From: a virus | Lineage: Duplodnaviria; Heunggongvirae; Uroviricota; Caudoviricetes | IMG/VR virus record: IMGVR_UViG_640753025_000001 | Span: 1-50,042 of that record | Strand: one strand, 5' to 3' | Length of the DNA: 50,042 nucleotides | Notes under the pieces: model-generated | What the model saw: the letters and a program-made list of their open reading frames with translations, nothing else | Told to the model about the DNA's origin: nothing | Database searches by the model: none | Shown here: in pieces, positions 5,924-42,802 of the stretch | How positions within the stretch are numbered: position 1 is the first letter of the stretch | Layout: the number at the start of each line of letters is the position of its first letter | Made by a program: the position numbers and the translations under genes

Positions 5924-6325
5924 AGGCGATACCGTTATTTGATAAGAAGTGAAGGTTTCCCAACTTTGAGTTGAGCGCCGGGGATATTTATTCCTGCTTT
6001 TAGTTGGTGTTTGATTGCCAGTTTGTCGGCTTTAATTGTTGTTTCAAACTCAACGTATTCTGGAGGAAGGGCGCTTGAGTCGATGATTTCTACAGTTTCT
6101 GACGGTTTGCGGATTGTTACCTGGTGAATACCTGCTCGAATCTTTTTCTTTCCAACCATTTCAAGCGATGACGCTATATACGTCATAATGCTATCAATCT
6201 TATTTTGAATTACTGCTGCTCTTTCATTCAGTGACTTTGCCTCTTCCTTGAGGCGTTCAGCATAACCATGAATCGCCACGGGTTTAACAGACACCTCAGA
6301 GTCATTTAAGATGGCTTAAAGAGAG

Positions 6326-6610
6326 GTGCCCATGAGCGGTAAGCGTTATCCCGAAGAGTTTAAAACTGAAGCAGTCAAACAGGTTGTTGATCGCGGTTAT
6401 TCTGTTGCCAGCGTTGCAACACGTCTCGATATCACCACCCACAGCCTTTATGCCTGGATAAAGAAGTACGGTCCGGATTCTTCCACTAATAAAGAACAGT
6501 CAGATGCTCAGGCCGAGATCCGCCGTCTCCAGAAAGAGCTGAAACGGGTTACCGACGAACGGGACATATTAAAAAAAGCCGCGGCGTACTTCGCAAAGCT
6601 GTCCGACTGA
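6326..6610 (+). CDS. IS3-family transposase OrfA (HTH)
   Basis: 94-aa ORF; A-run (TTAAAAAAAGCC) near 3' end consistent with a -1 frameshift site. Confidence 0.9.
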   Translation: MPMSGKRYPEEFKTEAVKQVVDRGYSVASVATRLDITTHSLYAWIKKYGPDSSTNKEQSDAQAEIRRLQKELKRVTDERDILKKAAAYFAKLSD

Positions 6611-6666
6611 GGTACGCCTTTATCCGTGACAACTCCTGTTGCTGGCCTGTTCGCCTGCTCTGTCGG

Positions 6667-11067: not shown

Positions 11068-11718
11068 TTAAGGAAGGTTTGCTAGCTTGGCATCAACGAC
11101 AACGCCAATGATTTTACAGTTCCCATTGATTTCAATCATTGGGTATTGTGGATTGAGTGGTTTCAGGAATTTTCTACCGGCATCAATAACTAACTTTTTG
11201 AATGTCGCCTCGTTTTCTCCTTCAAGTTTGGCGACTACCAGCTTTCCATTACGTGGTTCGACTTCTGGGTCGACGAGAATAATCATCCCCTCAGGAATAC
11301 TCAGTCCTGCCGGGGCAGTCATTGAATCGCCTTTAACGTCGAGCCAAAAAGAGTCTTCAGAACAATCTACCGTTGTGTCGTACCAGTTATCTATTGCACG
11401 CCTATGATATGGCTCTACAGCTTCCATCCAACATCCTGCGCTTACCCAACTAATTAGAGGATACGAACCTCTTGGATCATGCCTGCTGTGATAGGCAATG
11501 TTTGAAAGACTATCCTCTCCTTTCAACAGGTAATCAGGGGAGCACTGCAAAGCCTTGGCTAAGGCCAATAGGTTTTCGCCATTGGGCTCAGTTTCAGATC
11601 GCTCCCATTGGGAAATAGCAACATTAGACACGCCAACCATCTTGCCAAGGGCAGCCTGCCTAATCTTGAGTTCTTTTCTGCGAGCGCGAATACGCTCACC
11701 CATCAGTTGTGTATTCAT
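11068..11718 (-). CDS. c2: prophage repressor, P22 C2 / lambda CI type (HTH + S24 peptidase)
   Basis: 216-aa ORF; N-terminal HTH, C-terminal S24 domain with intact KGDSM Ser and FKKL Lys; recalled as near-identical to P22 C2. Confidence 0.88.
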   Translation of the reverse strand: MNTQLMGERIRARRKELKIRQAALGKMVGVSNVAISQWERSETEPNGENLLALAKALQCSPDYLLKGEDSLSNIAYHSRHDPRGSYPLISWVSAGCWMEAVEPYHRRAIDNWYDTTVDCSEDSFWLDVKGDSMTAPAGLSIPEGMIILVDPEVEPRNGKLVVAKLEGENEATFKKLVIDAGRKFLKPLNPQYPMIEINGNCKIIGVVVDAKLANLP

Positions 11719-11798: not shown

Positions 11799-11984
11799 AT
11801 GTACAAAAAAGATGTTATTGACCACTTCGGAACCCAGCGTGCTGTTGCTAAAGCACTAGGCATTAGCGATGCAGCAGTCTCTCAGTGGAAAGAAGTTATC
11901 CCAGAGAAAGACGCCTATCGATTGGAAATCGTTACAGCTGGCGCCCTGAAGTATCAAGAAAGTGCTTACCGCCAAGCGGCATAA
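11799..11984 (+). CDS. cro: Cro
   Basis: 61-aa HTH protein divergent from the repressor. Confidence 0.85.
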   Translation: MYKKDVIDHFGTQRAVAKALGISDAAVSQWKEVIPEKDAYRLEIVTAGALKYQESAYRQAA

Positions 11985-31856: not shown

Positions 31857-33242
31857 ATGGCTACGTGGCAACAGGGTATTAATTCTGGTGGGTTTCTTGC
31901 TGGCATCGGTGCGCAAAATGAGAATGCGCCAAAGGCAAGCGACATTAACGCAACGCTTGGTCTGATCCGCGAAAACAATGAACTGGCTCGCTCAGGTGCA
32001 AATAACGTTGGTCTGACCGCGTTACGTGGTCTGGCTGGAGTTGCTGATATTTACAAGCAGGAACAGCAACAGAAAGCGATTAATGCGTTCAATAAGGTTC
32101 ATGCTGATGCATGGGCTTCTGGTGATCCATCGGGACTATTTAAGTTTGCCCAGGAAAATCCAGCGTTTGTTGCACAGGCACAACAGGCGTTTTCTGGTCT
32201 TAATGATCAGCAACGCAACGATATGGGCGATTTAGCCATGAGGGCTAACGTCGCTCTTTCTCAGGGACCGGAAGCCTACAGTAAATTCATTACTGACAAC
32301 AAGGACAGGTTAAATCGCGTTGGTGCTAATGCTGACTGGATGATTCAGACAGGTATCCAGAATCCAGAGCAGCTATCACACATGCTGACTACTATGTCTC
32401 TCGGTGCGCTTGGACCAGAAAAGGCGTTTGCTGTTCAGGATAAGATGGCTGGTCGTGAAATTGACCGAGGCAGGCTGGCAGAGACAATCCGCAGCAATCA
32501 GGCTGGCGAGGCACTTCAGGCGAGAGGGCAAAACCTTTCCTATCAGTCAGCAATGACTGGACACGGACTTGCAGCAGAAAGACTGGCACTTGATAAGCAG
32601 AAATTCGGTTTTGAAGTACAACAGGCACAAAAGAAGGCCGATGAACTTATTAATGCTGCGCCAAAACTATCCGTGAACATGGAAAAGGCTATAGAAAAAT
32701 CAGCAGGTGATGCGGCAGCTAGTCGTAATGCTGCCGATTCAATGACAACGCTTGCTGACACGCTTGAGAAGGAGAAGCCAACTCCTGGTTTGTTCGGTAA
32801 CGCTGAAAATATGTTCACTAAGCTTACGGGGCAAGATAACTACCTCCGAGATATGCGGATTAGATTCAACCAACTAGCCAATGCGCAGGCAACCAAGCTT
32901 CTCCCCCCCGGCCCTGCATCAGATAAGGATATTGAGTTTGCAAGGAAAGGCATTCCAAGCGAAACGGATAATCCAATGGTCATGGCTCGATGGTTAAGGG
33001 GTATGGCAAAAATGGAAAGTAATAACGCGAAGTTCAACGAGTTTAGGTCAGAGTGGATGAGTGCAAATGGCAGCCCAGGACAATCTGATCGCAACCGAAA
33101 CATCATGGGGATGGATGTTAAGAAGGGTGAATCATTGAACTCTGCGGCAAAACGTTTTCTTTCCTCAAGTTATGGCGATAGCCAACCTCAACAGCAATTG
33201 TCCGATGACGAATTAATTAGCAAATATCTCGGAGGGCAGTAA
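31857..33242 (+). CDS. ejection protein (P22 gp20-like)
   Basis: 461-aa ORF in gp20 position. Confidence 0.75.
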
Positions 33243-35068
33243 TGGCCTATAGTCGTGAACAGTTGATGACGGCGTTAAGGAATGCTGATGCTGCCGGCGA
33301 TACTGAGGGGGCACGTCGCATTGCTCAGATGCTGTCTTCTGGTGATCAATCCACTCAAAACCAATCGCAGCCAGAAGAACAATCTCTGGTGGGAAAAGCT
33401 ACTGACTGGCTCACTGGTGGTCAAAGTGCAGGGCAAATTGCAGAACAGGCTGGCCGTGGTCTGGTAAACATACCATTTGACGTATTGCAGGGTGGCGCAA
33501 GTCTGATTAATGCAATCAGCCAGGGTCTTGGTGGCCCCAAGGTTTTGGATGATGTTTATCGTCCAGTAGATCGACCAACAGACCCTTATGCGCAAGCTGG
33601 AGAAACAATTGGCGGGTATTTAGTTCCAGGAGTTGGAACGGCAGGAAGCATGGCTATTGGATCACTGGCAGAGGCCGCAAATCAGAAAGGCGATTTCGCA
33701 CAAAATGCAGCCAAAAATGCCGGAGTTAACCTTGCCGCTCAGGGTGTTCTTTCCGCAGCAGCAAAGGGAATAGGGCGTGGAATAACGGCTATAAAAGGTG
33801 ATATTGCGCCAGAAGTGGCGAAGAAAATTGCCACATCAGAATCGATGGGCGTGACACCAATGACATCTGATGTTATCCCGCCGAAAAATGCTTTCACTCG
33901 TGGCCTTACTCAGGATGCCGAGGGGGCTTTGCTCGGGACAGGCTCAAAGAGAGCGGAGCAATATGCAACGCGTAGTAAACTGGTAAGCAATTATTTTGAC
34001 CGTTTTGGTGAGTACAACCCTGATGATGTGGTGAAATCTCTTACCACCACGTTAAGGGGGCGGAAGGATGCCGCTGGCGCTGTTATCAATGACGTCACCA
34101 ATAAAATGGGTAATGCCGCAGTTGATACCACAAATACCATGAATGCTCTGAATACAGCGATCGCAAGACAGGAACGGCTTGGGACGTCTGCCAATCAAAG
34201 CCTGCTTACATCCTTGCGTAACCTACGTGAAGAATTAGCAAACCCTGCAACTGATTTGGATGTTACGTTTGATCTCTTGCGTCAGCACAGAACAGCATTT
34301 AGATCTAATGTTCAGGGAGATGCTATGGTCTTCCCCAACCAGGCAAAAGCAGCTACCAATATGGTAGAGAATGCAATGTCAAAAGACCTTCGTAACGCAG
34401 TTGCTAAAAACCTCGGTGCATCAGACGCAGCAAAATACCTTAAAGCAAATTCCGATTATGCAAACGTTTATAATAAGGTGCTTAATAAAAACATTGCCAA
34501 CAAGCTCAACAAGGCAAGCAGTGAAGCCAGTCCTGAACTTATAAATACCGTTGTATTAAGCAGAAAACCATCTGACGTGAAACGAATCTGGAGCGCACTG
34601 GATGATAAAGGGAAAGATGCTATGCGTGCAGCTTACGTCAGCAAAATAGCGGAAAAGGCCGGCGACTCTCCAGCCAAGTTCATCACTGAAGTTAATAAGC
34701 TGAAATCTCAGTCAGGAGGTGAAATTTACAACACTATTTTTTCTGGAAAGCACATGAAAGAACTTGATGCTCTTAATGAAGTTCTACAGCAAACAGCAAG
34801 GTCAGACACCGCAAATGTAGTAACTCAGACGGGGCAATCGCAAGCCAACAGGATAAGGACGATTGGCGCAACTGCGACTCTTGGCGTATCAATGGGGCTT
34901 GAGGCTGGTTTCGGTGCAATGATGCGCTTGTATGAGTCCAAAGCAGCAAGGAATGCGCTCTTACGTCTGGCAAACACTAAAGCTGGAACGCCAGCCTATG
35001 AAAGAGCGCTGAATAACGCCGCAAATGCCATCAGACCAATACTTGCCAATGATGCAACTGATCGCTAA
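33242..35068 (+). CDS. ejection protein (P22 gp16-like)
   Basis: 608-aa ORF in gp16 position. Confidence 0.8.
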
Positions 35069-35089: not shown

Positions 35090-35728
35090 TTAATTGCGAA
35101 TGGAATCGCGGAACTCTTTGCTTGATAGAAAAGGATCTGTTCTCCTTAACTCATCATAGTTTTTATTAAACTTTCTTGCTTCACCTGGGTATCTGTTGAA
35201 CAAAACATTGCAGAAAAAAGAGAGCAATAACTCACATATGAATGCTAATACCCTGAAAAATAAAGGTATAAAAAGAAGGGAAGGTTCATTGAAGTCTCTA
35301 TTCCAAACAAAATAGACAATCATCCCGACATACCAAATTGATATCCCTATACTGATGATTGTTCCAACAGAGGTAACTACGATCCCGATTAAGTCGGACA
35401 GTCTGTTTGCCAGTAACTCATTTGAGTATCTTGCAATCATATACCGCCAACATTTTGCAATATCATCCTGATCTGTAGAGTCTTCTGGAATAGCTAGGCT
35501 TCTACATATTGAAGTAGCTCTTTTTTTCTCAACTCTTTTTGAGATCCATCCATTAAAGAGATACATCAACACCTGCGTTGCTATTCCTGCACCAAGTGAT
35601 ATCAAAGACATCCCCAAAAATCTCCATCCTGGAGATAGTGACTGGTACTGCCAAACAAAAAAAATTAAAAAACCCAATGAGCCTATGACATAGGCTGATG
35701 TATCGCTATATATATCTATTTTTTTCAT
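35090..35728 (-). CDS. membrane protein in sieA position (putative superinfection exclusion)
   Basis: ATG at 35728 (MKKIDIYSD) after AAGGAG; about four hydrophobic segments; AT-rich gene between gp16 and the immI-like region. Confidence 0.55.
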   Translation of the reverse strand: MKKIDIYSDTSAYVIGSLGFLIFFVWQYQSLSPGWRFLGMSLISLGAGIATQVLMYLFNGWISKRVEKKRATSICRSLAIPEDSTDQDDIAKCWRYMIARYSNELLANRLSDLIGIVVTSVGTIISIGISIWYVGMIVYFVWNRDFNEPSLLFIPLFFRVLAFICELLLSFFCNVLFNRYPGEARKFNKNYDELRRTDPFLSSKEFRDSIRN

Positions 35729-35792: not shown

Positions 35793-36434
35793 TCAAAGCA
35801 ACGGGATTTCAAGGTAAACTGCGGTTGCCAAAATACTAACATCTTCATTTCTAACAAGAATATTAGGATACATTGGGTTTAGGGATACTAAGTTTGTCTC
35901 TATTTCACCAATGTAAACCTGCTTGAAGCTCAATATTTGCTCTTTATCCAATGATGCTATTACATAATCTTTGCTTTTAGCTTTTACTAGAGGGCTGAAC
36001 GTGACAACTGATCCTCTGGGAAAGCTAATACCTGAACTTGTAGTCATAGCTTCACCTTCAATAGTCAATGCAAATGCAGAGTCACCAACATTGTATATTG
36101 CCGGATGAAATCTAGACGATGAATGTTCACCTGTGTTTAGGTAATGCATAACTTCATCTAGTTTGAGGATTGGTATTTGCTTTACCAGAACGTCAGGCAT
36201 GACGTTTTTTGTTCCAGGCCCCTGACCTTCACCCAGAGCTAACCACTCAGCCGTAGTGCCTAATGCGTTGGCTAATGCCTGCAATACACGAAGCCGTGGT
36301 TTAGCCTCACCACCCTCGTATGCAGCTATTTGACGTTGAACAACACCAGCTAATTTTGACAACTGCGCCTGCGTCATACCCCTGGACTGTCTTGCCAGAG
36401 ATACTCTTGATGGGAATTGATCGTCAAAATTCAT
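35793..36434 (-). CDS. second CI-like repressor (HTH + S24-like domain, Ser to Ala at nucleophile)
   Basis: 213 aa; HTH GMTQAQLSKLAGV; C-terminal domain aligns to CI/C2 but has GEAM (Ala129, codon 36048..36050) where CI/C2 have GNSM/GDSM. Confidence 0.8.
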   Translation of the reverse strand: MNFDDQFPSRVSLARQSRGMTQAQLSKLAGVVQRQIAAYEGGEAKPRLRVLQALANALGTTAEWLALGEGQGPGTKNVMPDVLVKQIPILKLDEVMHYLNTGEHSSSRFHPAIYNVGDSAFALTIEGEAMTTSSGISFPRGSVVTFSPLVKAKSKDYVIASLDKEQILSFKQVYIGEIETNLVSLNPMYPNILVRNEDVSILATAVYLEIPLL

Positions 36435-36455
36435 TAGTTCACCATAAAAAATTCA

Positions 36456-36484
36456 TTGACTCATACTGAGTGTGAGTGAATAAT
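36456..36484 (+). promoter_or_regulatory. Pant-like promoter for arc-ant operon
   Basis: TTGACT - 17 bp - AATAAT; spacer holds tandem TGAGTGTGAGTG. Confidence 0.5.
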
Positions 36485-36532
36485 CAAACTACAAAAAGTG
36501 AGATTATGAGTTTTTCAAAAACAGGAGTGCAT

Positions 36533-36706
36533 AATGACTGAAAAGATATCTTCCATCAAGCCGCGTCAGGTTCGTTTTACAGAAAAGGTTGATTCACATA
36601 TCCGCGAATCAGCAAAAAGATGCCATAGGTCAATTCAGGCAGAGATAGCTTATCGAATGGAGTTATTGATGAAACTTGAGGCAAAGGGCGATGTTGTCAT
36701 CCAATA
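36533..36706 (+). CDS. arc: Arc-like ribbon-helix-helix repressor
   Basis: 57 aa; RQVRFTEKVDSHIRESAKRCHRSIQAEIAYRM fits Arc/Mnt pattern; below ORF-track cutoff. Confidence 0.65.
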
Positions 36707-36780
36707 AAAATAGTGAAGCCCGGCAGTGCGCGAACACAAACCGGGCCTCTATGTCAGTAACCGTATGCAAGGAAACTAAC

Positions 36781-37407
36781 ATGAATATTGTAGCAAAATC
36801 AGATTACAACTTCCACGGAGTTGAGTTGGTGCCCACCCGTGATATGCATGGTGTTTGGTTTACATCATCTAATATTGCATCTGCACTTAAATATGCAAAT
36901 AGCCGTGCAGTAACAATGATTTATAACAAGTATAGCGATGAGTTTAGCGCCGGAATGACTCAGGTACTCGAAGTGAGTACCTCAGGAAATTATCGCAAAA
37001 AAGTGCGAGTTTTCTCACTACGCGGTGCCCACCTAATCGCGATGTTTGCTCGCACTCCGGTAGCCAAAGAGTTCCGCCGCTGGGTGCTGGATATTTTGGA
37101 TCGGCAGGCAGAATGCTCACCGATTGCAAAACAGTTTACTGACGAAGAACTGGTTAATCTCTGCTACTTACAATTGTGGATGGAGAAGAGTCAACAAATG
37201 TGCAAACACATCTACCCAGGAATGAAGCAAATTGGTTCTGAGCTTTCAGGAAGAATTTACGATATTGCATATGAGACTCGCTATATGTCAGAAGAAACCA
37301 AGAAATCACTTCTTCGTGAAATGAAGAATCTTGATACCAACAATTTTGTCGTAAAGAACGCTCAGCCAATGCTGACAAAACTGCGCGGCGAGGAATGGAT
37401 TCATTGA
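36781..37407 (+). CDS. ant: antirepressor (Bro-N domain)
   Basis: ATG at 36781 after AAGGAA; N-terminal domain (HGVELVPTRDMHGVWFTS...) resembles phage antirepressor N-domain. Confidence 0.7.
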   Translation: MNIVAKSDYNFHGVELVPTRDMHGVWFTSSNIASALKYANSRAVTMIYNKYSDEFSAGMTQVLEVSTSGNYRKKVRVFSLRGAHLIAMFARTPVAKEFRRWVLDILDRQAECSPIAKQFTDEELVNLCYLQLWMEKSQQMCKHIYPGMKQIGSELSGRIYDIAYETRYMSEETKKSLLREMKNLDTNNFVVKNAQPMLTKLRGEEWIH

Positions 37408-38143
37408 TTGGTGCGCCGGACGGCGCAAAAAGAAAACCGCCAGTGTGCTGCTGGCGGCCTATGTCACACCCTTACTACCACATAAGGAATGCCTAATGAC
37501 TTTGAAGAATGTAGCAAACATCGGATCCGTTGTCACGGATAAAACCATTGACAGCCAAAGTCTTCTGATGATGGTTAATGAAGCTCGCAAGTTATGTGGA
37601 GAGCCATCAGTACGTAACAACAAATTCATCGAGAAAATTGAGGATGAATTGGAGGGCGAGACCTACACAAAAAGTGTAGGTCGGAAAAACGGGGCTGACA
37701 TTGATGTTATCTCCATGACTATCAAGCAGGCGCTTCGTGTTGCTGCTCGCGAATCTAAAGCAGTTCGCCGAACACTTGTAGACAAACTTGAAAGTATGCA
37801 AGAAGCGCACATTAAAAGCGGTAAATCGTCGAGTGGACTTGTTGAGTATCGCCAGGCTCGAACATTGAAAATGACGGTTGAAGCTGTTACCAATCTGTTA
37901 GATTTGATGCCAAATCTTGCGCCGGAAGCAAAGCAGACTGCGGCAGCAAGCATAATCAACCCGATAGTTGGTTTTAATGCAATACCTCTTCCAGCAATAG
38001 AAGAGCATTACTACTCAGCAGGGGAGGTTGCAGAGCAGCTTGGAGTAACGGCAAACAAGATTGGTCGCATTGCTAACGCAAACAACTGAATCGCCACGGG
38101 TTTAACAGACACCTCAGAGTCATTTAAGATGGCTTAAAGAGAG

Positions 38144-38428
38144 GTGCCCATGAGCGGTAAGCGTTATCCCGAAGAGTTTAAAACTGAAGCAGTCAAACAG
38201 GTTGTTGATCGCGGTTATTCTGTTGCCAGCGTTGCAACACGTCTCGATATCACCACCCACAGCCTTTATGCCTGGATAAAGAAGTACGGTCCGGATTCTT
38301 CCACTAATAAAGAACAGTCAGATGCTCAGGCCGAGATCCGCCGTCTCCAGAAAGAGCTGAAACGGGTTACCGACGAACGGGACATATTAAAAAAAGCCGC
38401 GGCGTACTTCGCAAAGCTGTCCGACTGA
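38144..38428 (+). CDS. IS3-family transposase OrfA
   Basis: Identical protein to 6326..6610. Confidence 0.9.
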   Translation: MPMSGKRYPEEFKTEAVKQVVDRGYSVASVATRLDITTHSLYAWIKKYGPDSSTNKEQSDAQAEIRRLQKELKRVTDERDILKKAAAYFAKLSD

Positions 38429-38484
38429 GGTACGCCTTTATCCGTGACAACTCCTGTTGCTGGCCTGTTCGCCTGCTCTGTCGG

Positions 38485-39297
38485 GTGCTGGATGTTCATC
38501 CCAGTGGTTTTTACGCCTGGCTTCAGCAGCCGCATTCACAACGCCATCAGGCAGACCTGAGACTGACAGGACAGATTAAACAGTTCTGGCTGGAATCGGG
38601 ATGCGTCTATGGTTATCGCAAAATCCATCTGGATTTGCGTGACAGCGGGCAACAGTGCGGAGTAAACAGAGTCTGGAGACTGATGAAACGTGTCGGAATA
38701 AAGGCTCAGGTCGGATACCGAAGCCCGCGGGCACGTAAAGGCGAGGCCAGTATCGTGTCACCCAACAGGCTCCAGCGACAGTTCAATCCGGATGCTCCTG
38801 ATGAGCGTTGGGTAACGGACATAACCTACATCAGGACCCACGAAGGCTGGCTGTATCTTGCCGTTGTTGTTGATCTGTTCTCACGCAAAATTATCGGCTG
38901 GTCCATGCAATCCCGGATGACAAAGGACATTGTCCTGAACGCACTGCTGATGGCTGTATGGCGGCGTAATCCCGAAAAACAGGTGCTGGTTCATTCGGAT
39001 CAGGGCAGTCAGTACACAAGCCATGAGTGGCAGTCGTTCCTGAAATCACACGGCCTGGAGGGTAGCATGAGCCGTCGCGGTAACTGCCATGATAATGCGG
39101 TTGCAGAAAGTTTTTTCCAGTTGTTGAAACGTGAACGGATAAAGAAAAAGATCTACGGAACGCGGGAAGAAGCCCGCAGTGATATTTTTGATTACATCGA
39201 AATGTTTTATAACAGTAAGCGTCGGCATGGTTCTAGCGAACAGATGTCACCGACAGAATATGAAAACCAGTATTATCAACGGCTCGGAAGTGTCTAG
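38485..39297 (+). CDS. IS3-family transposase OrfB
   Basis: Identical protein to 6667..7479. Confidence 0.9.
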   Translation: MLDVHPSGFYAWLQQPHSQRHQADLRLTGQIKQFWLESGCVYGYRKIHLDLRDSGQQCGVNRVWRLMKRVGIKAQVGYRSPRARKGEASIVSPNRLQRQFNPDAPDERWVTDITYIRTHEGWLYLAVVVDLFSRKIIGWSMQSRMTKDIVLNALLMAVWRRNPEKQVLVHSDQGSQYTSHEWQSFLKSHGLEGSMSRRGNCHDNAVAESFFQLLKRERIKKKIYGTREEARSDIFDYIEMFYNSKRRHGSSEQMSPTEYENQYYQRLGSV

Positions 39298-39471: not shown

Positions 39472-39497
39472 AAACCCGCTTAATCGCGGGTTTTTTC
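39472..39497 (+). terminator. rho-independent terminator ending the arc-ant operon
   Basis: Hairpin AAACCCGC-TTAATC-GCGGGTTT followed by TTTTC. Confidence 0.65.
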
Positions 39498-39767
39498 TTT
39501 CCTTAGAATTTCAGCCGCAACTTCTTTTACTCGTTCCGAGATTAATGAGGCCAGCCTCTCTTCTTCATCACGATACCCGCTTACAGGTGATGGTTTGGAG
39601 AGTGATTCTTCCATCGTAGCCACAATTTCAGAATTGATAGACCTGTTATTCATTTTTGCACGCTGCTTAATCTTAGCGTGCAACTCGTGTGTAAGCCTCA
39701 AGTGGAACTGCGCCTCATCGTATTTGCTGTACATCATCAATGCCTCACCAAATGGGTGGAATGGCAT
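39480..39767 (-). CDS. mnt: Mnt-like ribbon-helix-helix repressor
   Basis: 95-aa ORF; LRLTHELHAKIKQRAKMNNRSINSEIVATMEESLSKPSPVSGYRDEEERLA matches the P22 Mnt pattern as recalled; true start may be an internal Met. Confidence 0.65.
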   Translation of the reverse strand: MPFHPFGEALMMYSKYDEAQFHLRLTHELHAKIKQRAKMNNRSINSEIVATMEESLSKPSPVSGYRDEEERLASLISERVKEVAAEILRKEKTRD

Positions 39768-39867
39768 CGTAACCTACTGGATAAATCAACAATCGTACCA
39801 TTTCGGTATGTAACTATAGCTTACCGCAGCTCTGCTGTGGGGACTAATTGCGCCAGGAGCACATCAA

Positions 39868-41778
39868 ATGACTGACACCAATTACCTGATCTCTATGCCG
39901 TCTACACCTTTTTCGGCGCCACGAGCATTTAAATCAGTGGCGAACGGGAAAATCTATATCGGAAACCCTGACACTGACCCGGTAAATCCTGCTAACCAAA
40001 TTCCGGTATATGCCGTTAATGAGAATGGATCCGAGGTTCAGGTTTCTCAGCCAATCATCATTAACGCTGGAGGCTTCCCTGTTTATAACGGGCAGATTAT
40101 GAAGTTCATCACCAAACAGAACTTCAGCATGGCGGTGTATGATGCATATGGGGCGCAGCAGTTTTACTGGATTAATGTTGCAAATATGGACCCAAACTCT
40201 GCGTATCTGGAAGCGGTTAATGATGTTCTTGCAATGCTGGGCTCAAGCGATGGCGCAAAACTGATAGGTGGAATGAGCTTTCTTACAGCGGAAATGTACT
40301 CTCATCTTGTTGAAGGGATGGACTGGAGGAAAGCAATTCAAGCTGCTATAGACCAAGCTCACCAGAACTATTTAGCCGGAAGCGGCCCAACCAATATTCT
40401 CATTGGAGGTGAATTCTCCGTTACTCTCAATCCTAATTCAACTTTGATACCTGGTGAGGTTGCTGCGGGTCGAGGTGCGCTGTGTATGCGTAGTGGTGTA
40501 ACACTGATGGGCGGCGGAGCAATCACGCTTGATGGCAATTTTACTGGCTCAGCCAGCGGCGCAATCATTACAAACTGGGAAGGCGCCGCCGATAACTGCA
40601 AGATTCAGGGGATCACGCTTAACGGCAGCCGTGGCACCGCTGCCGGAACGGGGATTACCTGCATTAATATCTTGGACTCGGATAATGTCACTATTGATAA
40701 CGTTAAGGCGATAGATAGCACTTCTGGAGGGATTTATTTACGCCGAGCTAACAATACGGTTTATGGCTGTTCTAACTCAAGAATTATGAACTGCTACGTT
40801 CACAACGTTGAATATATTGGCATTCAGTGTGAACGCCCCAACGGGATGACCATTACGGGATGTGCCGTAGCCTCCTGCGGTGATAATGGCATTGATATCT
40901 TTGGTAACGTAACTGACGAATCTGGACAGGGAGTTGCGGAGGATGTTGTTGTTAGTAATAACACTATCCGTGATGTAAGCGTAGGAGTGTTCATCGAATC
41001 ATGCGGAAACGTGGCAATATCTTCGTGCCGTATTTCAGGATTTAGTAACTCTGGTGTTTTCTTTAACCGGATAAATACAGCTGCGTATAATTGTTCTGTA
41101 ATTGGATGCACGATAACAGGGGCGGATATTACCTCCAGCCAGGGCATCCGCTGGAAGAATGCAGTTGGTTACACTCGCGTTTATAACAACACACTAAAAA
41201 ACTGTATTGACTCCTTTGTGACAACTGGAGGGATGATTTACGTTGATATTGGGGTGAATAACCATGAAAGCATTGGCAGGTGTTTTCTTTACGTTCCCAA
41301 AAAATCTAACGGATGTGTCTATACAAGAATGGTTCAGCAGGTCTACAACGGAGTTCAGACAGATGGCATACCGTACAACACGACACCTCGTGGTTGGCCA
41401 TCCGCAAACAACACTAGGTACTATCGCTGTTCATTCACCGCGCCGTACATGATGTATTCCGCTACGACTGGGGAAGATAACCTCATTCGGGCTACAGGCA
41501 ATTTGCCATTCAACAGTGGCTGGGGGCCTGCTTACTCGCTATACAATACGATTGTTTCTGGAGAAACAGTAATAGCCATGGGGAGCTCGCTACTGTCTGC
41601 CGGTGAATACATGCTAATAAACGGTTATTATTATTTAGTTTATAGCGTCACATCATCCTATGCTGTAGTAAGGAAATGGGATGTATCCAGTCAGGACTAT
41701 ATTGCCGGAGACTACACATCTTATTTAAATAGCGCATACGCATATTCCATCTTCAGAGCTGCTTGGGGAACACTATGA
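39868..41778 (+). CDS. tailspike protein (P22-type head-binding domain + divergent receptor-binding domain)
   Basis: 636 aa; N-terminal ~110 aa (FKSVANGKIYIGNPDTDPVNPANQIPVY) collinear with P22 gp9; remainder Gly/Asn/Ser/Thr-rich with repeated short strands. Confidence 0.88.
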   Translation: MTDTNYLISMPSTPFSAPRAFKSVANGKIYIGNPDTDPVNPANQIPVYAVNENGSEVQVSQPIIINAGGFPVYNGQIMKFITKQNFSMAVYDAYGAQQFYWINVANMDPNSAYLEAVNDVLAMLGSSDGAKLIGGMSFLTAEMYSHLVEGMDWRKAIQAAIDQAHQNYLAGSGPTNILIGGEFSVTLNPNSTLIPGEVAAGRGALCMRSGVTLMGGGAITLDGNFTGSASGAIITNWEGAADNCKIQGITLNGSRGTAAGTGITCINILDSDNVTIDNVKAIDSTSGGIYLRRANNTVYGCSNSRIMNCYVHNVEYIGIQCERPNGMTITGCAVASCGDNGIDIFGNVTDESGQGVAEDVVVSNNTIRDVSVGVFIESCGNVAISSCRISGFSNSGVFFNRINTAAYNCSVIGCTITGADITSSQGIRWKNAVGYTRVYNNTLKNCIDSFVTTGGMIYVDIGVNNHESIGRCFLYVPKKSNGCVYTRMVQQVYNGVQTDGIPYNTTPRGWPSANNTRYYRCSFTAPYMMYSATTGEDNLIRATGNLPFNSGWGPAYSLYNTIVSGETVIAMGSSLLSAGEYMLINGYYYLVYSVTSSYAVVRKWDVSSQDYIAGDYTSYLNSAYAYSIFRAAWGTL

Positions 41779-42207: not shown

Positions 42208-42227
42208 TACTGTATATAAAAACAGTA
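42208..42227 (+). promoter_or_regulatory. LexA (SOS) box
   Basis: TACTGTATATAAAAACAGTA fits CTGT-N8-ACAG; 18 bp upstream of ATG 42246. Confidence 0.7.
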
Positions 42228-42245
42228 ATCATCAGAGGGAAGATC

Positions 42246-42485
42246 ATGCACCGTCAGTCAGACATCTATCAGGCTTTCCGCGAGTCGGTATTGCGCAACT
42301 CCAAAGGCTACCAGTATCTGCATACAAAGGATTTTGTGTCAGCGCTGCTCCGGCGTGGGCTGCACTTTACCGACTCAGAGGCTAATGCGTGGATATCTAG
42401 AGAGCAGACGTACTTTGTCGACAAAACCACCGACCATAGCGAAAACCGTTTGTGGATGATGGCTAACATGGGGAGGGTTTTGTAA
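42246..42485 (+). CDS. hypothetical protein, first gene of LexA-box operon
   Basis: 79-aa ORF after AGAGGGAAG; stop overlaps next start (TAATG). Confidence 0.55.
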   Translation: MHRQSDIYQAFRESVLRNSKGYQYLHTKDFVSALLRRGLHFTDSEANAWISREQTYFVDKTTDHSENRLWMMANMGRVL

Positions 42486-42802
42486 TGGGCTTTCCTTCAC
42501 CCGCAGCGGACTACGTCGAGCAGCGACTGTCCGTTAACTCGATATGCAATGTTGGTCCTAACACCCGCGTTTTCGAAAGGGATGGCGGTTATGTTGTGCT
42601 GGATATCTCCCTGAAGCCAAAGCAGGGTAGTCAGGTTCTGATCCAGCACGGCGGCGGGACTGAGCTTGCCACGTTGAGAGGGAGGGCCCTGATTACTGAA
42701 GACGGCGAAGCGATTGAAGGCGAGGCCCTGGATGATATCACTGTCGCCGGCGTGGTGACACACACCATCATCGATGTGAGAAGTGACAGCGTAGCGGTAT
42801 AA
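42485..42802 (+). CDS. UmuD'-like protein (S24 fold, no Ser/Lys dyad, starts at the UmuD' N-terminus)
   Basis: 105 aa starting MGFPSPAADYVEQR, the segment just after the UmuD Cys-Gly cleavage site; GDSM Ser and catalytic Lys positions not conserved. Confidence 0.6.
   Translation: MGFPSPAADYVEQRLSVNSICNVGPNTRVFERDGGYVVLDISLKPKQGSQVLIQHGGGTELATLRGRALITEDGEAIEGEALDDITVAGVVTHTIIDVRSDSVAV

What the first reader, a model, noticed from the sequence alone, without database searches (positions are those of the whole stretch)
35793..36434. Second CI-like repressor in the immI-like region has Ala at the S24 nucleophile position
Where P22 carries mnt, this prophage has a 213-aa HTH + S24-domain repressor divergent from arc-ant. 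The S24 domain aligns well with CI/C2 (DSAF..E-G-x-x-M..FK) but reads GEAM instead of GDSM/GNSM (Ala129), while the Lys is kept. That predicts a repressor that dimerises but cannot autocleave, making control of the antirepressor operon insensitive to SOS. The intact C2-type repressor at 11068..11718 keeps the Ser.
Basis: seen in the sequence. Interest (0 to 1): 0.6.

Follow-up and report, generated by a model that had tools for sequence, protein, structure and literature searches.

The report
Catalytically dead CI-like repressor guarding antirepressor genes
A P22-like prophage of E. coli HS carries a second lambda-CI-type repressor that has lost both the catalytic serine and the cut site needed for DNA-damage-triggered self-destruction, and it belongs to a widespread family that sits next to antirepressor genes and has lost these features many times; this is a tidy new variant of a known theme, not a new kind of system.

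Summary
ORF 35793..36434(-) encodes a 213-aa HTH_3 + Peptidase_S24 protein. Ala129 sits in the column of LexA Ser119, lambda CI Ser149 and UmuD Ser60. Lys171 sits in the general-base column.

The gene is under strong purifying selection (CTD dN/dS about 0.02-0.04) and is identical in the plaque-forming phage JEP4.

It is one part of a mobile three-part cassette: this repressor, a divergent 57-aa Arc/Mnt-type RHH gene, then antirepressor genes. The cassette occurs in P22-like, lambda-like and HK97-like prophages of Enterobacterales.

Among 122 distinct relatives:
- only 2 keep Ala-Gly;
- Ser is replaced in 30 and Lys in 32;
- at least 10 independent changes occurred at each catalytic column.

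Best reading: an SOS-blind maintenance repressor that plays the role of P22 Mnt. This part is inferred, not tested.

The claim that it stands "where P22 carries mnt" is right for position only. A true Mnt homologue survives at 39480..39767 beside the tailspike gene. The C2-type repressor at 11068..11718 has the full site and dyad, and the prophage is mitomycin-inducible.

Verdict: new variant of a known kind, moderate interest.

The parts
35793..36434 (-). Gene for the 213-aa HTH_3 + S24-fold repressor. It has Ala129 at the nucleophile position, Lys171 retained, and Val95-Met96 in place of Ala-Gly.
36435..36533 (.). 99-bp divergent control region. Its length and layout are conserved across the family.
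36456..36484 (+). Pant-like sigma-70 promoter, TTGACT-17-AATAAT (10 of 12). The -35 block CATTGAC(T/A)CA is the most conserved element of the region in relatives.
36459..36471 (.). 13-bp near-palindrome ACTCATaCTGAGT inside the promoter spacer; candidate operator. The TGAGTG tandem at 36467..36478 overlaps its right arm.
   Evidence: Relatives carry different dyads at the same position.
36497..36515 (.). Conserved element AGTGAGATTATGAGTTTTT, at about +6 to +25 of the rightward promoter, with TGAG repeats 8 bp apart. Candidate second operator or part of the leftward promoter.
36534..36707 (+). 57-aa Arc/Mnt-type ribbon-helix-helix gene, first gene of the rightward operon.
36781..37407 (+). Antirepressor-type gene (Bro-N + P22_AR_C; phrog_245 'anti-repressor Ant').
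37496..38089 (+). Second antirepressor-like gene (phrog_1726). Its 3' end is cut off by the IS3 insertion, and RefSeq flags it as a pseudogene.
35090..35728 (-). SieA-like membrane protein, 64 nt downstream of the repressor stop and on the same strand. It is a lineage-specific add-on (8 of 27 near-identical loci; absent from JEP4).
38144..39297 (+). IS3-family insertion sequence interrupting the cassette.
39480..39767 (-). True Mnt homologue (Arc family), divergent from the tailspike gene at 39868..41778.
11068..11718 (-). Primary C2/CI-type immunity repressor with intact Ala-Gly, Ser and Lys.

Best explanation
The gene encodes a lambda-CI/P22-C2-type repressor whose C-terminal LexA-like (S24) domain is kept as a folded oligomerisation module but is a pseudo-protease. 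The nucleophile Ser is Ala129 and the Ala-Gly scissile bond is Val95-Met96, so RecA-stimulated self-cleavage is not possible. The protein is the leftward half of a mobile 'ant moron' cassette.

Proposed mechanism: from the 99-bp control region it represses a strong rightward promoter. That promoter drives a small Arc-type RHH repressor and one or two antirepressor genes. In a lysogen it therefore does the job that Mnt does in P22 immI. It keeps antirepressor off whether or not the SOS response is on. SOS induction of the prophage runs only through the intact C2-type repressor at immC.

Shown here: fold, residue columns, loss of the cleavage site, purifying selection, conserved gene arrangement, and recurrent loss of the dyad in relatives. 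Inferred: DNA binding at this region, repression of the ant operon, dimerisation, SOS-blindness in vivo.
For: Residue columns and fold. Established knowledge (from memory): LexA S119A and G85D are non-cleavable; PDB entries 1jhh and 1jhf are those mutants.

Selection: CTD dN/dS is 0.006/0.145 and 0.003/0.172 against close relatives, and the Ala codon GCT is kept.

Context:
- A divergent Arc-like ~57-aa gene lies about 100 bp upstream in about 50 of 66 distinct loci.
- The next gene carries Bro-N, P22_AR_N/C, ANT, KilA-N or pRha domains across the 43 distinct loci scanned.
- The cassette sits in lambda-like tail regions, HK97-like prophages and next to integrases, as well as in P22-like phages.
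- An Mnt homologue lies within 4 kb in only 9 of 66 distinct loci, so the cassette usually works without Mnt.

Arc-like identity: the profile hits AmrZ (3.8e-5), Mnt (3.6e-3) and Arc (2.5e-2) in PDB. Pfam Arc matches 10 of 18 relatives.

Family decay: of 122 distinct members, 2 have Ala-Gly, 92 have Ser and 90 have Lys. There are at least 11 and 10 changes at the two catalytic columns on an NJ tree. The catalytic columns rank 23rd and 25th of 127 CTD columns, below structural neighbours (M130 100%, F121 99%). The cleavage-site columns rank 83rd and 116th.

Other points:
- No LexA box in 36435..36533.
- Promoter TTGACT-17-AATAAT with a dyad in its spacer.
- Villafane et al. 2008 (PMC2629481) catalogued this prophage as HS-1. 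They noted that its ant genes must be controlled differently from P22.
Against: No experiment bears on cleavage, DNA binding or repression. The operator could not be assigned: the dyads in the promoter spacer differ between clades although the HTH recognition helix (RQIAAYE) is nearly invariant, so the dyads may belong to the Arc-like protein instead. No convincing leftward promoter for the repressor gene was found by the consensus scan. Ser and Lys are still kept in about 75% of relatives, well above the median column (0.41). Some family members may therefore still use the dyad, which weakens a family-wide 'dead enzyme' claim, though not the claim for this protein. A true Mnt homologue in the same prophage could share or take over control in this lineage.
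Confidence: 0.72

Rival explanations
1. The protein is still SOS-sensitive. It self-cleaves with another nucleophile (Thr131, Thr132, Ser133 or Ser134) or at a non-canonical site, or another S24 protease cuts it in trans.
For: Four hydroxyl residues follow the motif (EGEAMTTSS). Lys171 is kept. About 75% of relatives keep Ser and Lys although they lack Ala-Gly, which could mean cleavage at non-canonical sites in the family.
Against: The G-x-S-M register is fixed by M130 (100%) and G127 (84%), and by the structure match to lambda CI. Ser-to-Ala at this position abolishes cleavage in LexA and lambda CI (established knowledge). The cleavage-loop segment is unconstrained in the family (columns rank 83rd and 116th of 127) and is modelled as a helix rather than the canonical loop. 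Pfam does not match the N-terminal 22 profile positions.
Confidence: 0.05
2. The HTH-S24 protein is not the lysogenic keeper of the ant operon. The Arc-like protein and/or the Mnt homologue control ant. This protein regulates something else (for example its own gene plus sieA), or acts mainly during infection.
For: A true Mnt homologue is present. A sieA-like gene lies directly downstream on the same strand. The variable dyads in the promoter spacer fit the variable RHH better than the conserved HTH.
Against: Mnt is absent from the flanks of 57 of 66 distinct loci, and sieA-like is found only in some HS-type loci. The one constant partner of the repressor gene is the divergent Arc-like/antirepressor operon, at a fixed spacing of about 99 bp.
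Confidence: 0.15
3. It is a decaying relic of a once-functional CI gene, acquired by recombination and no longer used.
For: Loss of the catalytic Ser and the cleavage site looks like decay. The neighbouring antirepressor-like gene is broken by an IS3.
Against: The reading frame is intact in 28 E. coli genomes, in Salmonella, in 25 viral contigs and in a plaque-forming phage. dN/dS is about 0.02-0.04 in both domains. Structural core residues are 90-100% conserved across a family at 33-48% identity.
Confidence: 0.03

Closest known systems
Lambda CI / P22 C2 / 434 CI repressors (HTH_3 + LexA-like S24 domain)
   Same: Same two-domain architecture. Best sequence and structure matches are lambda CI (3bdn, 2ho0, 1f39) and the 434 repressor N-domain. 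The Lys general base and the hydrophobic core of the S24 fold are kept.
   Different: Ala replaces the nucleophile Ser and Val-Met replaces Ala-Gly. It is not at immC and does not face cro. Instead it faces an Arc-like/antirepressor operon in the late-region 'ant moron'. The prophage has a separate, intact C2 at 11068..11718.
P22 immI (mnt / arc / ant, with sieA nearby)
   Same: Same place in the genome, between gene 16 and the tailspike gene and next to a sieA-like gene. Same logic: a leftward maintenance repressor is divergent from a rightward operon that begins with a small RHH repressor and continues with antirepressor. P22 Mnt is likewise not an SOS target (established knowledge).
   Different: The leftward repressor is an HTH + S24-fold protein, not an RHH tetramer. 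The Arc-like protein is only distantly related to Arc. The antirepressor has Bro-N in place of P22_AR_N. An sar-type antisense RNA was not looked for. A true Mnt homologue sits separately beside the tailspike gene.
Non-cleavable prophage repressors controlled by antirepressors (Gifsy GfoR/GtgR, DicA, RacR; Lemire et al. 2011, PMC3121763)
   Same: They are repressors that cannot be inactivated by RecA-stimulated self-cleavage, within circuits that involve antirepressors.
   Different: Those are short proteins (about 150 aa) that lack the C-terminal domain altogether. They are the primary immunity repressors and the targets of antirepressors. Here the S24 fold is kept but disarmed, and the protein is proposed to control antirepressor synthesis.
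Engineered non-cleavable mutants LexA S119A / G85D and lambda CI ind-
   Same: The natural protein carries the equivalent of both classes of mutation at once (nucleophile and scissile site).
   Different: Here the changes are natural, fixed and under purifying selection.

Membership tests
Peptidase S24 / LexA superfamily (self-cleaving repressors) | LexA-like beta-fold C-terminal domain | tested here: met
   Pfam PF00717 at 1.3e-12. AF2 model with pLDDT 86 matches the lambda CI CTD at TM 0.77-0.84 and rmsd 2.1-2.4 A.
Peptidase S24 / LexA superfamily (self-cleaving repressors) | Nucleophilic Ser in the G-x-S-M motif | tested here: not met
   Ala129 (codon GCT) aligns with LexA S119, lambda S149 and UmuD S60.
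Peptidase S24 / LexA superfamily (self-cleaving repressors) | Lys general base | tested here: met
   Lys171 aligns with LexA K156 and lambda K192.
Peptidase S24 / LexA superfamily (self-cleaving repressors) | Ala-Gly (or Cys-Gly) scissile bond in a cleavage-site loop | tested here: not met
   The column holds Val95-Met96. The Pfam match starts at profile position 23. Only 2 of 122 relatives have Ala-Gly.
Peptidase S24 / LexA superfamily (self-cleaving repressors) | RecA*-stimulated or alkaline self-cleavage | not testable with these tools
   Needs purified protein or a western blot after mitomycin C.
Lambdoid primary immunity repressor (CI/C2) | N-terminal Cro/CI-type HTH | tested here: met
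   HTH_3 at 9.3e-13; 434 repressor N-domain at 4e-6.
Lambdoid primary immunity repressor (CI/C2) | Located at immC, divergent from cro, between the PL and PR operons | tested here: not met
   It lies between gene 16 and the tailspike gene. The immC repressor is the separate gene at 11068..11718, with a cro-like gene at 11799.
P22-type immI module | Leftward maintenance repressor divergent from a rightward operon that starts with an Arc-type RHH and continues with antirepressor | tested here: met
   Gene order and strands. The RHH profile hits Arc, Mnt and AmrZ. Ant-type domains are present.
P22-type immI module | The maintenance repressor is Mnt, an RHH tetramer | tested here: not met
   The protein is HTH + S24 fold. 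The true Mnt homologue is elsewhere, at 39480..39767.
P22-type immI module | sar antisense RNA across the arc-ant junction | not tested
   The consensus scan found no promoter on the minus strand near 36700-36800. No dedicated search was made.

The most novel reading that the evidence does not exclude
These proteins form a large, so far unnamed family of LexA-superfamily pseudo-proteases that act as dedicated gatekeepers of mobile antirepressor cassettes. Lineages have repeatedly switched from an SOS-cleavable state (still seen in P0016, which has Ala-Gly, Ser and Lys in the same cassette) to an SOS-blind state. The disarmed active-site cleft may have been re-used to sense a non-SOS signal, such as a protein or peptide from a superinfecting phage. 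That would give prophages a second induction input that does not depend on DNA damage.
Probability: 0.12. Interest if true: 0.75.

Novelty: new variant of a known kind. Interest (0 to 1): 0.45.

Why it matters
It answers a question left open in 2008 for this very prophage (HS-1, also called phiHS4): how its antirepressor genes are controlled without a recognisable arc. It identifies a distant Arc-type gene and a disarmed CI-type repressor as the control pair.

It gives a natural, selected example of a LexA-fold pseudo-enzyme. Its relatives show repeated, independent loss of self-cleavage features, which makes the family a useful system for asking why some phage circuits are wired to SOS and others are insulated from it.

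In practice, genome annotation that labels such proteins 'LexA family' or 'repressor C2' and infers SOS inducibility from the S24 domain would be misleading.

Tried and rejected
- **LexA box in the control region.** None was found in 36435..36533. The only perfect box in the window is at 42210..42225, which is unrelated.
- **Structured leader RNA.** The fold of 36485..36545 is no better than shuffles, z = 0.24.
- **Defence-system membership.** PADLOC gives only generic HTH matches (RmrA, CapH) for the repressor and nothing for its neighbours.
- **Curated family name.** No NCBIfam model reaches its cut-off. PHROGs places the protein in the broad phrog_4 'transcriptional repressor'.
- **Operator assignment.** Dyads are found in the promoter spacer in most loci, but their sequences differ between clades and no single half-site emerged. 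The 13-bp palindrome has no significant second copy in the window.
- **Leftward promoter.** The consensus scan finds none at 9 of 12 or better in the intergenic region.
- **The 57-aa protein alone against PDB.** Only a marginal hit, E = 0.8; a family profile was needed.
- **Literature.** Searches for described S24-fold repressors lacking the catalytic Ser in antirepressor cassettes found none. The library does not cover subscription journals.
- **Pseudogene reading.** Rejected on dN/dS.

Full report
**What is there.** The window is 100% identical, over the 748 nt searched, to the P22-like prophage of E. coli HS (NC_009800.1). That prophage was catalogued as HS-1 by Villafane et al. 2008 (PMC2629481). 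A 2026 preprint calls it phiHS4 and shows that it is mitomycin-inducible.

ORF 35793..36434(-) is real. It starts with ATG, encodes 213 aa and matches RefSeq WP_001008290.1. Pfam finds HTH_3 at residues 14-65 (9.3e-13) and Peptidase_S24 at 108-206 (1.3e-12). The S24 match starts at profile position 23, so the N-terminal part of the profile that holds the cleavage site is not matched.

**The residue columns.** Three independent alignments agree.
- phmmer against PDB aligns EGeAMtt with lambda CI EGnSMta, and sFKq with tFKk.
It puts Ala129 under LexA S119, lambda S149 and UmuD S60. It puts Lys171 under LexA K156, lambda K192 and UmuD K97. It puts the canonical V-x-A-G site under D-E-V-M, so Val95-Met96 replace Ala-Gly.
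- An AF2 model (pLDDT 86.4) has lambda CI as its best structural match: 3bdn at E 1.5e-11, and the CTD entries at TM 0.77-0.84 and rmsd 2.1-2.4 A.

M130 is the majority residue in 100% and G127 in 84% of 122 distinct relatives. That fixes the register, so no Ser or Thr can be slid into the nucleophile column. It is also incomplete, because the scissile site is missing as well.

**Not an error, not a relic.** The identical protein is encoded by the plaque-forming phage JEP4. It is also found in 28 of 5,426 complete E. coli genomes, in Salmonella (P0001) and in 25 IMG/VR contigs. Against two close relatives with dS of 0.15-0.2, the C-terminal domain has dN of 0.003-0.006, so dN/dS is about 0.02-0.04. 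The Ala codon GCT is kept. The 81%-identical relative in L003 has TCT, which encodes Ser.

**Surroundings.** The order from left to right mirrors P22 immI.

| Coordinates | Strand | Feature |
|---|---|---|
| 33242..35068 | + | gene-16-type DNA-transfer gene |
| 35090..35728 | - | SieA-like membrane protein (phrog_7745, 6.5e-21) |
| 35793..36434 | - | the repressor |
| 36435..36533 | . | 99-bp control region |
| 36534..36707 | + | 57-aa ORF |
| 36781..37407 | + | Bro-N + P22_AR_C antirepressor-type gene |
| 37496..38089 | + | second antirepressor-like gene, cut by IS3 |
| 38144..39297 | + | IS3 element |
| 39480..39767 | - | true Mnt homologue |
| 39868..41778 | + | tailspike gene |

The Mnt homologue shares 'SKPSPVSGYRDEEERLA' with P22 Mnt as I recall the latter. 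So the mnt slot relative to arc-ant is occupied by the HTH-S24 gene, but mnt itself has not been replaced.

The 57-aa ORF matches PDB only marginally on its own. A profile of 18 relatives hits AmrZ (3.8e-5), Mnt (3.6e-3) and Arc (2.5e-2). Pfam Arc matches 10 of the 18. The 2008 statement that HS-1 lacks arc therefore no longer holds.

**A conserved mobile cassette.** Homologue searches and locus retrieval gave 112 loci with 66 distinct repressor sequences among the first 110.
- In about 50 of the 66, an Arc-like ~57-aa gene lies about 100 bp upstream on the other strand.
- Among the first genes after it in 43 distinct loci, 23 carry Bro-N, 12 P22_AR_N, 12 P22_AR_C, 5 ANT, 4 KilA-N and 2 pRha.
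- The cassette sits inside a lambda-like tail operon (L003), an HK97-like prophage (L005), next to integrases (L006-8) and at prophage ends (L111).
- An Mnt homologue is within 4 kb in only 9 of 66 distinct loci. The sieA-like gene occurs in only 8 of 27 HS-type loci.

The constant unit is repressor + Arc-like + antirepressor.

**Family-wide erosion of the protease.** Among 122 distinct relatives at 33% identity or more, only 2 keep Ala-Gly (P0016 and P0048).

| Column | Majority residue | Replacements |
|---|---|---|
| Nucleophile (129) | Ser, 92 | Ala 24; Gly, Asp or Thr 6 |
| General base (171) | Lys, 90 | Arg 28; Val or Met 4 |

On an NJ tree rooted on canonical CI-type outgroups (all Ala-Gly/Ser/Lys), at least 11 and 10 changes are needed at the two catalytic columns.

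The catalytic columns rank 23rd and 25th of 127 C-terminal columns. They fall below structural neighbours such as M130 (100%) and F121 (99%). The cleavage-site columns rank 83rd and 116th. This is the pattern of a fold kept for structure, with catalysis dispensable.

Thirty-seven members keep Ala at P1 with Gly replaced. That fits several independent losses from a cleavable ancestor as well as it fits a single loss. P0016 has all three features and sits in the same cassette type, in a prophage that also has its own CI. An SOS-cleavable version of the cassette therefore probably exists.

Within the query's own clade, P0002, P0004 and P0005 have Ala and P0003 has Ser. This implies either a reversal or recombination in P0003, or repeated loss.

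**Control region.** A strong rightward promoter, TTGACT-17-AATAAT, lies at 36456..36484 (10 of 12). A 13-bp near-palindrome, ACTCATaCTGAGT, lies in its spacer at 36459..36471. A conserved element, AGTGAGATTATGAGTTTTT (36497..36515), follows the -10 hexamer.

Relatives keep the 99-bp layout and usually have a dyad in the same spacer, but with different sequences. The HTH recognition helix (RQIAAYE) is nearly invariant, whereas the RHH beta-strand varies. I therefore cannot say which protein binds which element. There is no LexA box in this region.

**Most likely mechanism.** The protein binds the control region through its HTH. It probably binds as a dimer or higher oligomer through the disarmed S24 domain, and it keeps the Arc-like/antirepressor operon off in the lysogen. 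With neither nucleophile nor scissile bond it cannot respond to RecA*, so antirepressor synthesis is insulated from SOS, as it is with Mnt in P22. SOS induction of the prophage goes through the intact C2 repressor (VSAG, GDSM, FKK). This is consistent with the observed mitomycin induction.

Confidence is about 0.9 that the protein cannot self-cleave and about 0.7 for the regulatory role.

**Comparison and novelty.** The protein works like Mnt but is built like CI. It fails two defining features of self-cleaving S24 proteins, and it fails the immC location test for a primary immunity repressor.

The non-cleavable prophage repressors I could find described (Gifsy GfoR/GtgR, DicA, RacR; PMC3121763) lack the C-terminal domain altogether. 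Stx-phage CI clades with the S24 domain all keep the Ser (PMC8951638). I found no description of this family or of its recurrent disarming, within a library that omits most subscription journals. Only 2 of 50,697 deposited phage genomes carry a relative.

This is a new variant of a known kind. It is useful and coherent, and a phage-regulation specialist would find it only mildly surprising.

Noticed in passing
window 42208..42802: A perfect consensus LexA box (TACTGTATATAAAAACAGTA; core at 42210..42225) lies about 20 nt upstream of a 79-aa ORF with no family match (42246..42485). A 105-aa UmuD'/HumD-like ORF (42485..42802; phrog_3469 at 1e-45) follows, with its start overlapping the first ORF's stop. 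It begins MGFPSPAADYVEQR, the UmuD sequence just after the Cys-Gly site, and appears to lack the GDSM motif. This looks like an SOS-regulated accessory operon encoding a second S24-related, probably non-catalytic protein in the same prophage.
   Followed up: partly
window 39480..39867: A true Mnt homologue (95 aa, Arc family) is divergent from the tailspike gene across a 100-bp spacer, with no arc or ant between them. This resembles the mnt-only 'ant morons' described for ST64T and ST104. What it regulates here is unknown.
   Followed up: partly
window 37496..39297: An IS3-family element (38144..39297, with a programmed frameshift in the RefSeq annotation) truncates the second antirepressor-like gene (phrog_1726). 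In phage JEP4 the corresponding region is uninterrupted, with a full-length 'KilA protein' gene plus one more ORF.
   Followed up: partly
window 35090..35728: A SieA-like superinfection-exclusion membrane protein lies directly downstream of the repressor gene on the same strand and may be co-transcribed with it. It is present in only 8 of 27 near-identical loci and absent from JEP4.
   Followed up: partly
L111:4988-5809 (P0016) and P0048: Two family members keep Ala-Gly, Ser and Lys together. P0016 lies in the same Arc-like + P22_AR_N cassette, in a prophage that also has its own CI. These are candidates for an SOS-cleavable version of the antirepressor gatekeeper.
   Followed up: partly
L001 (JEP4) 6055..6624: The JEP4 record annotates this gene as 'repressor protein C2' with a start codon 72 nt too far downstream. 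The N-terminus MNFDDxFPxRV is conserved across the family. Most RefSeq records call it only 'helix-turn-helix domain-containing protein'.
   Followed up: yes
relatives P0012-P0021 and their loci: Many relatives (260-300 aa) carry a C-terminal extension of about 50-70 aa after the S24 domain, with a conserved predicted helix (…ERLxxLExKLDxLLxLL…). The E. coli HS protein lacks it. Its function is unknown.
   Followed up: no
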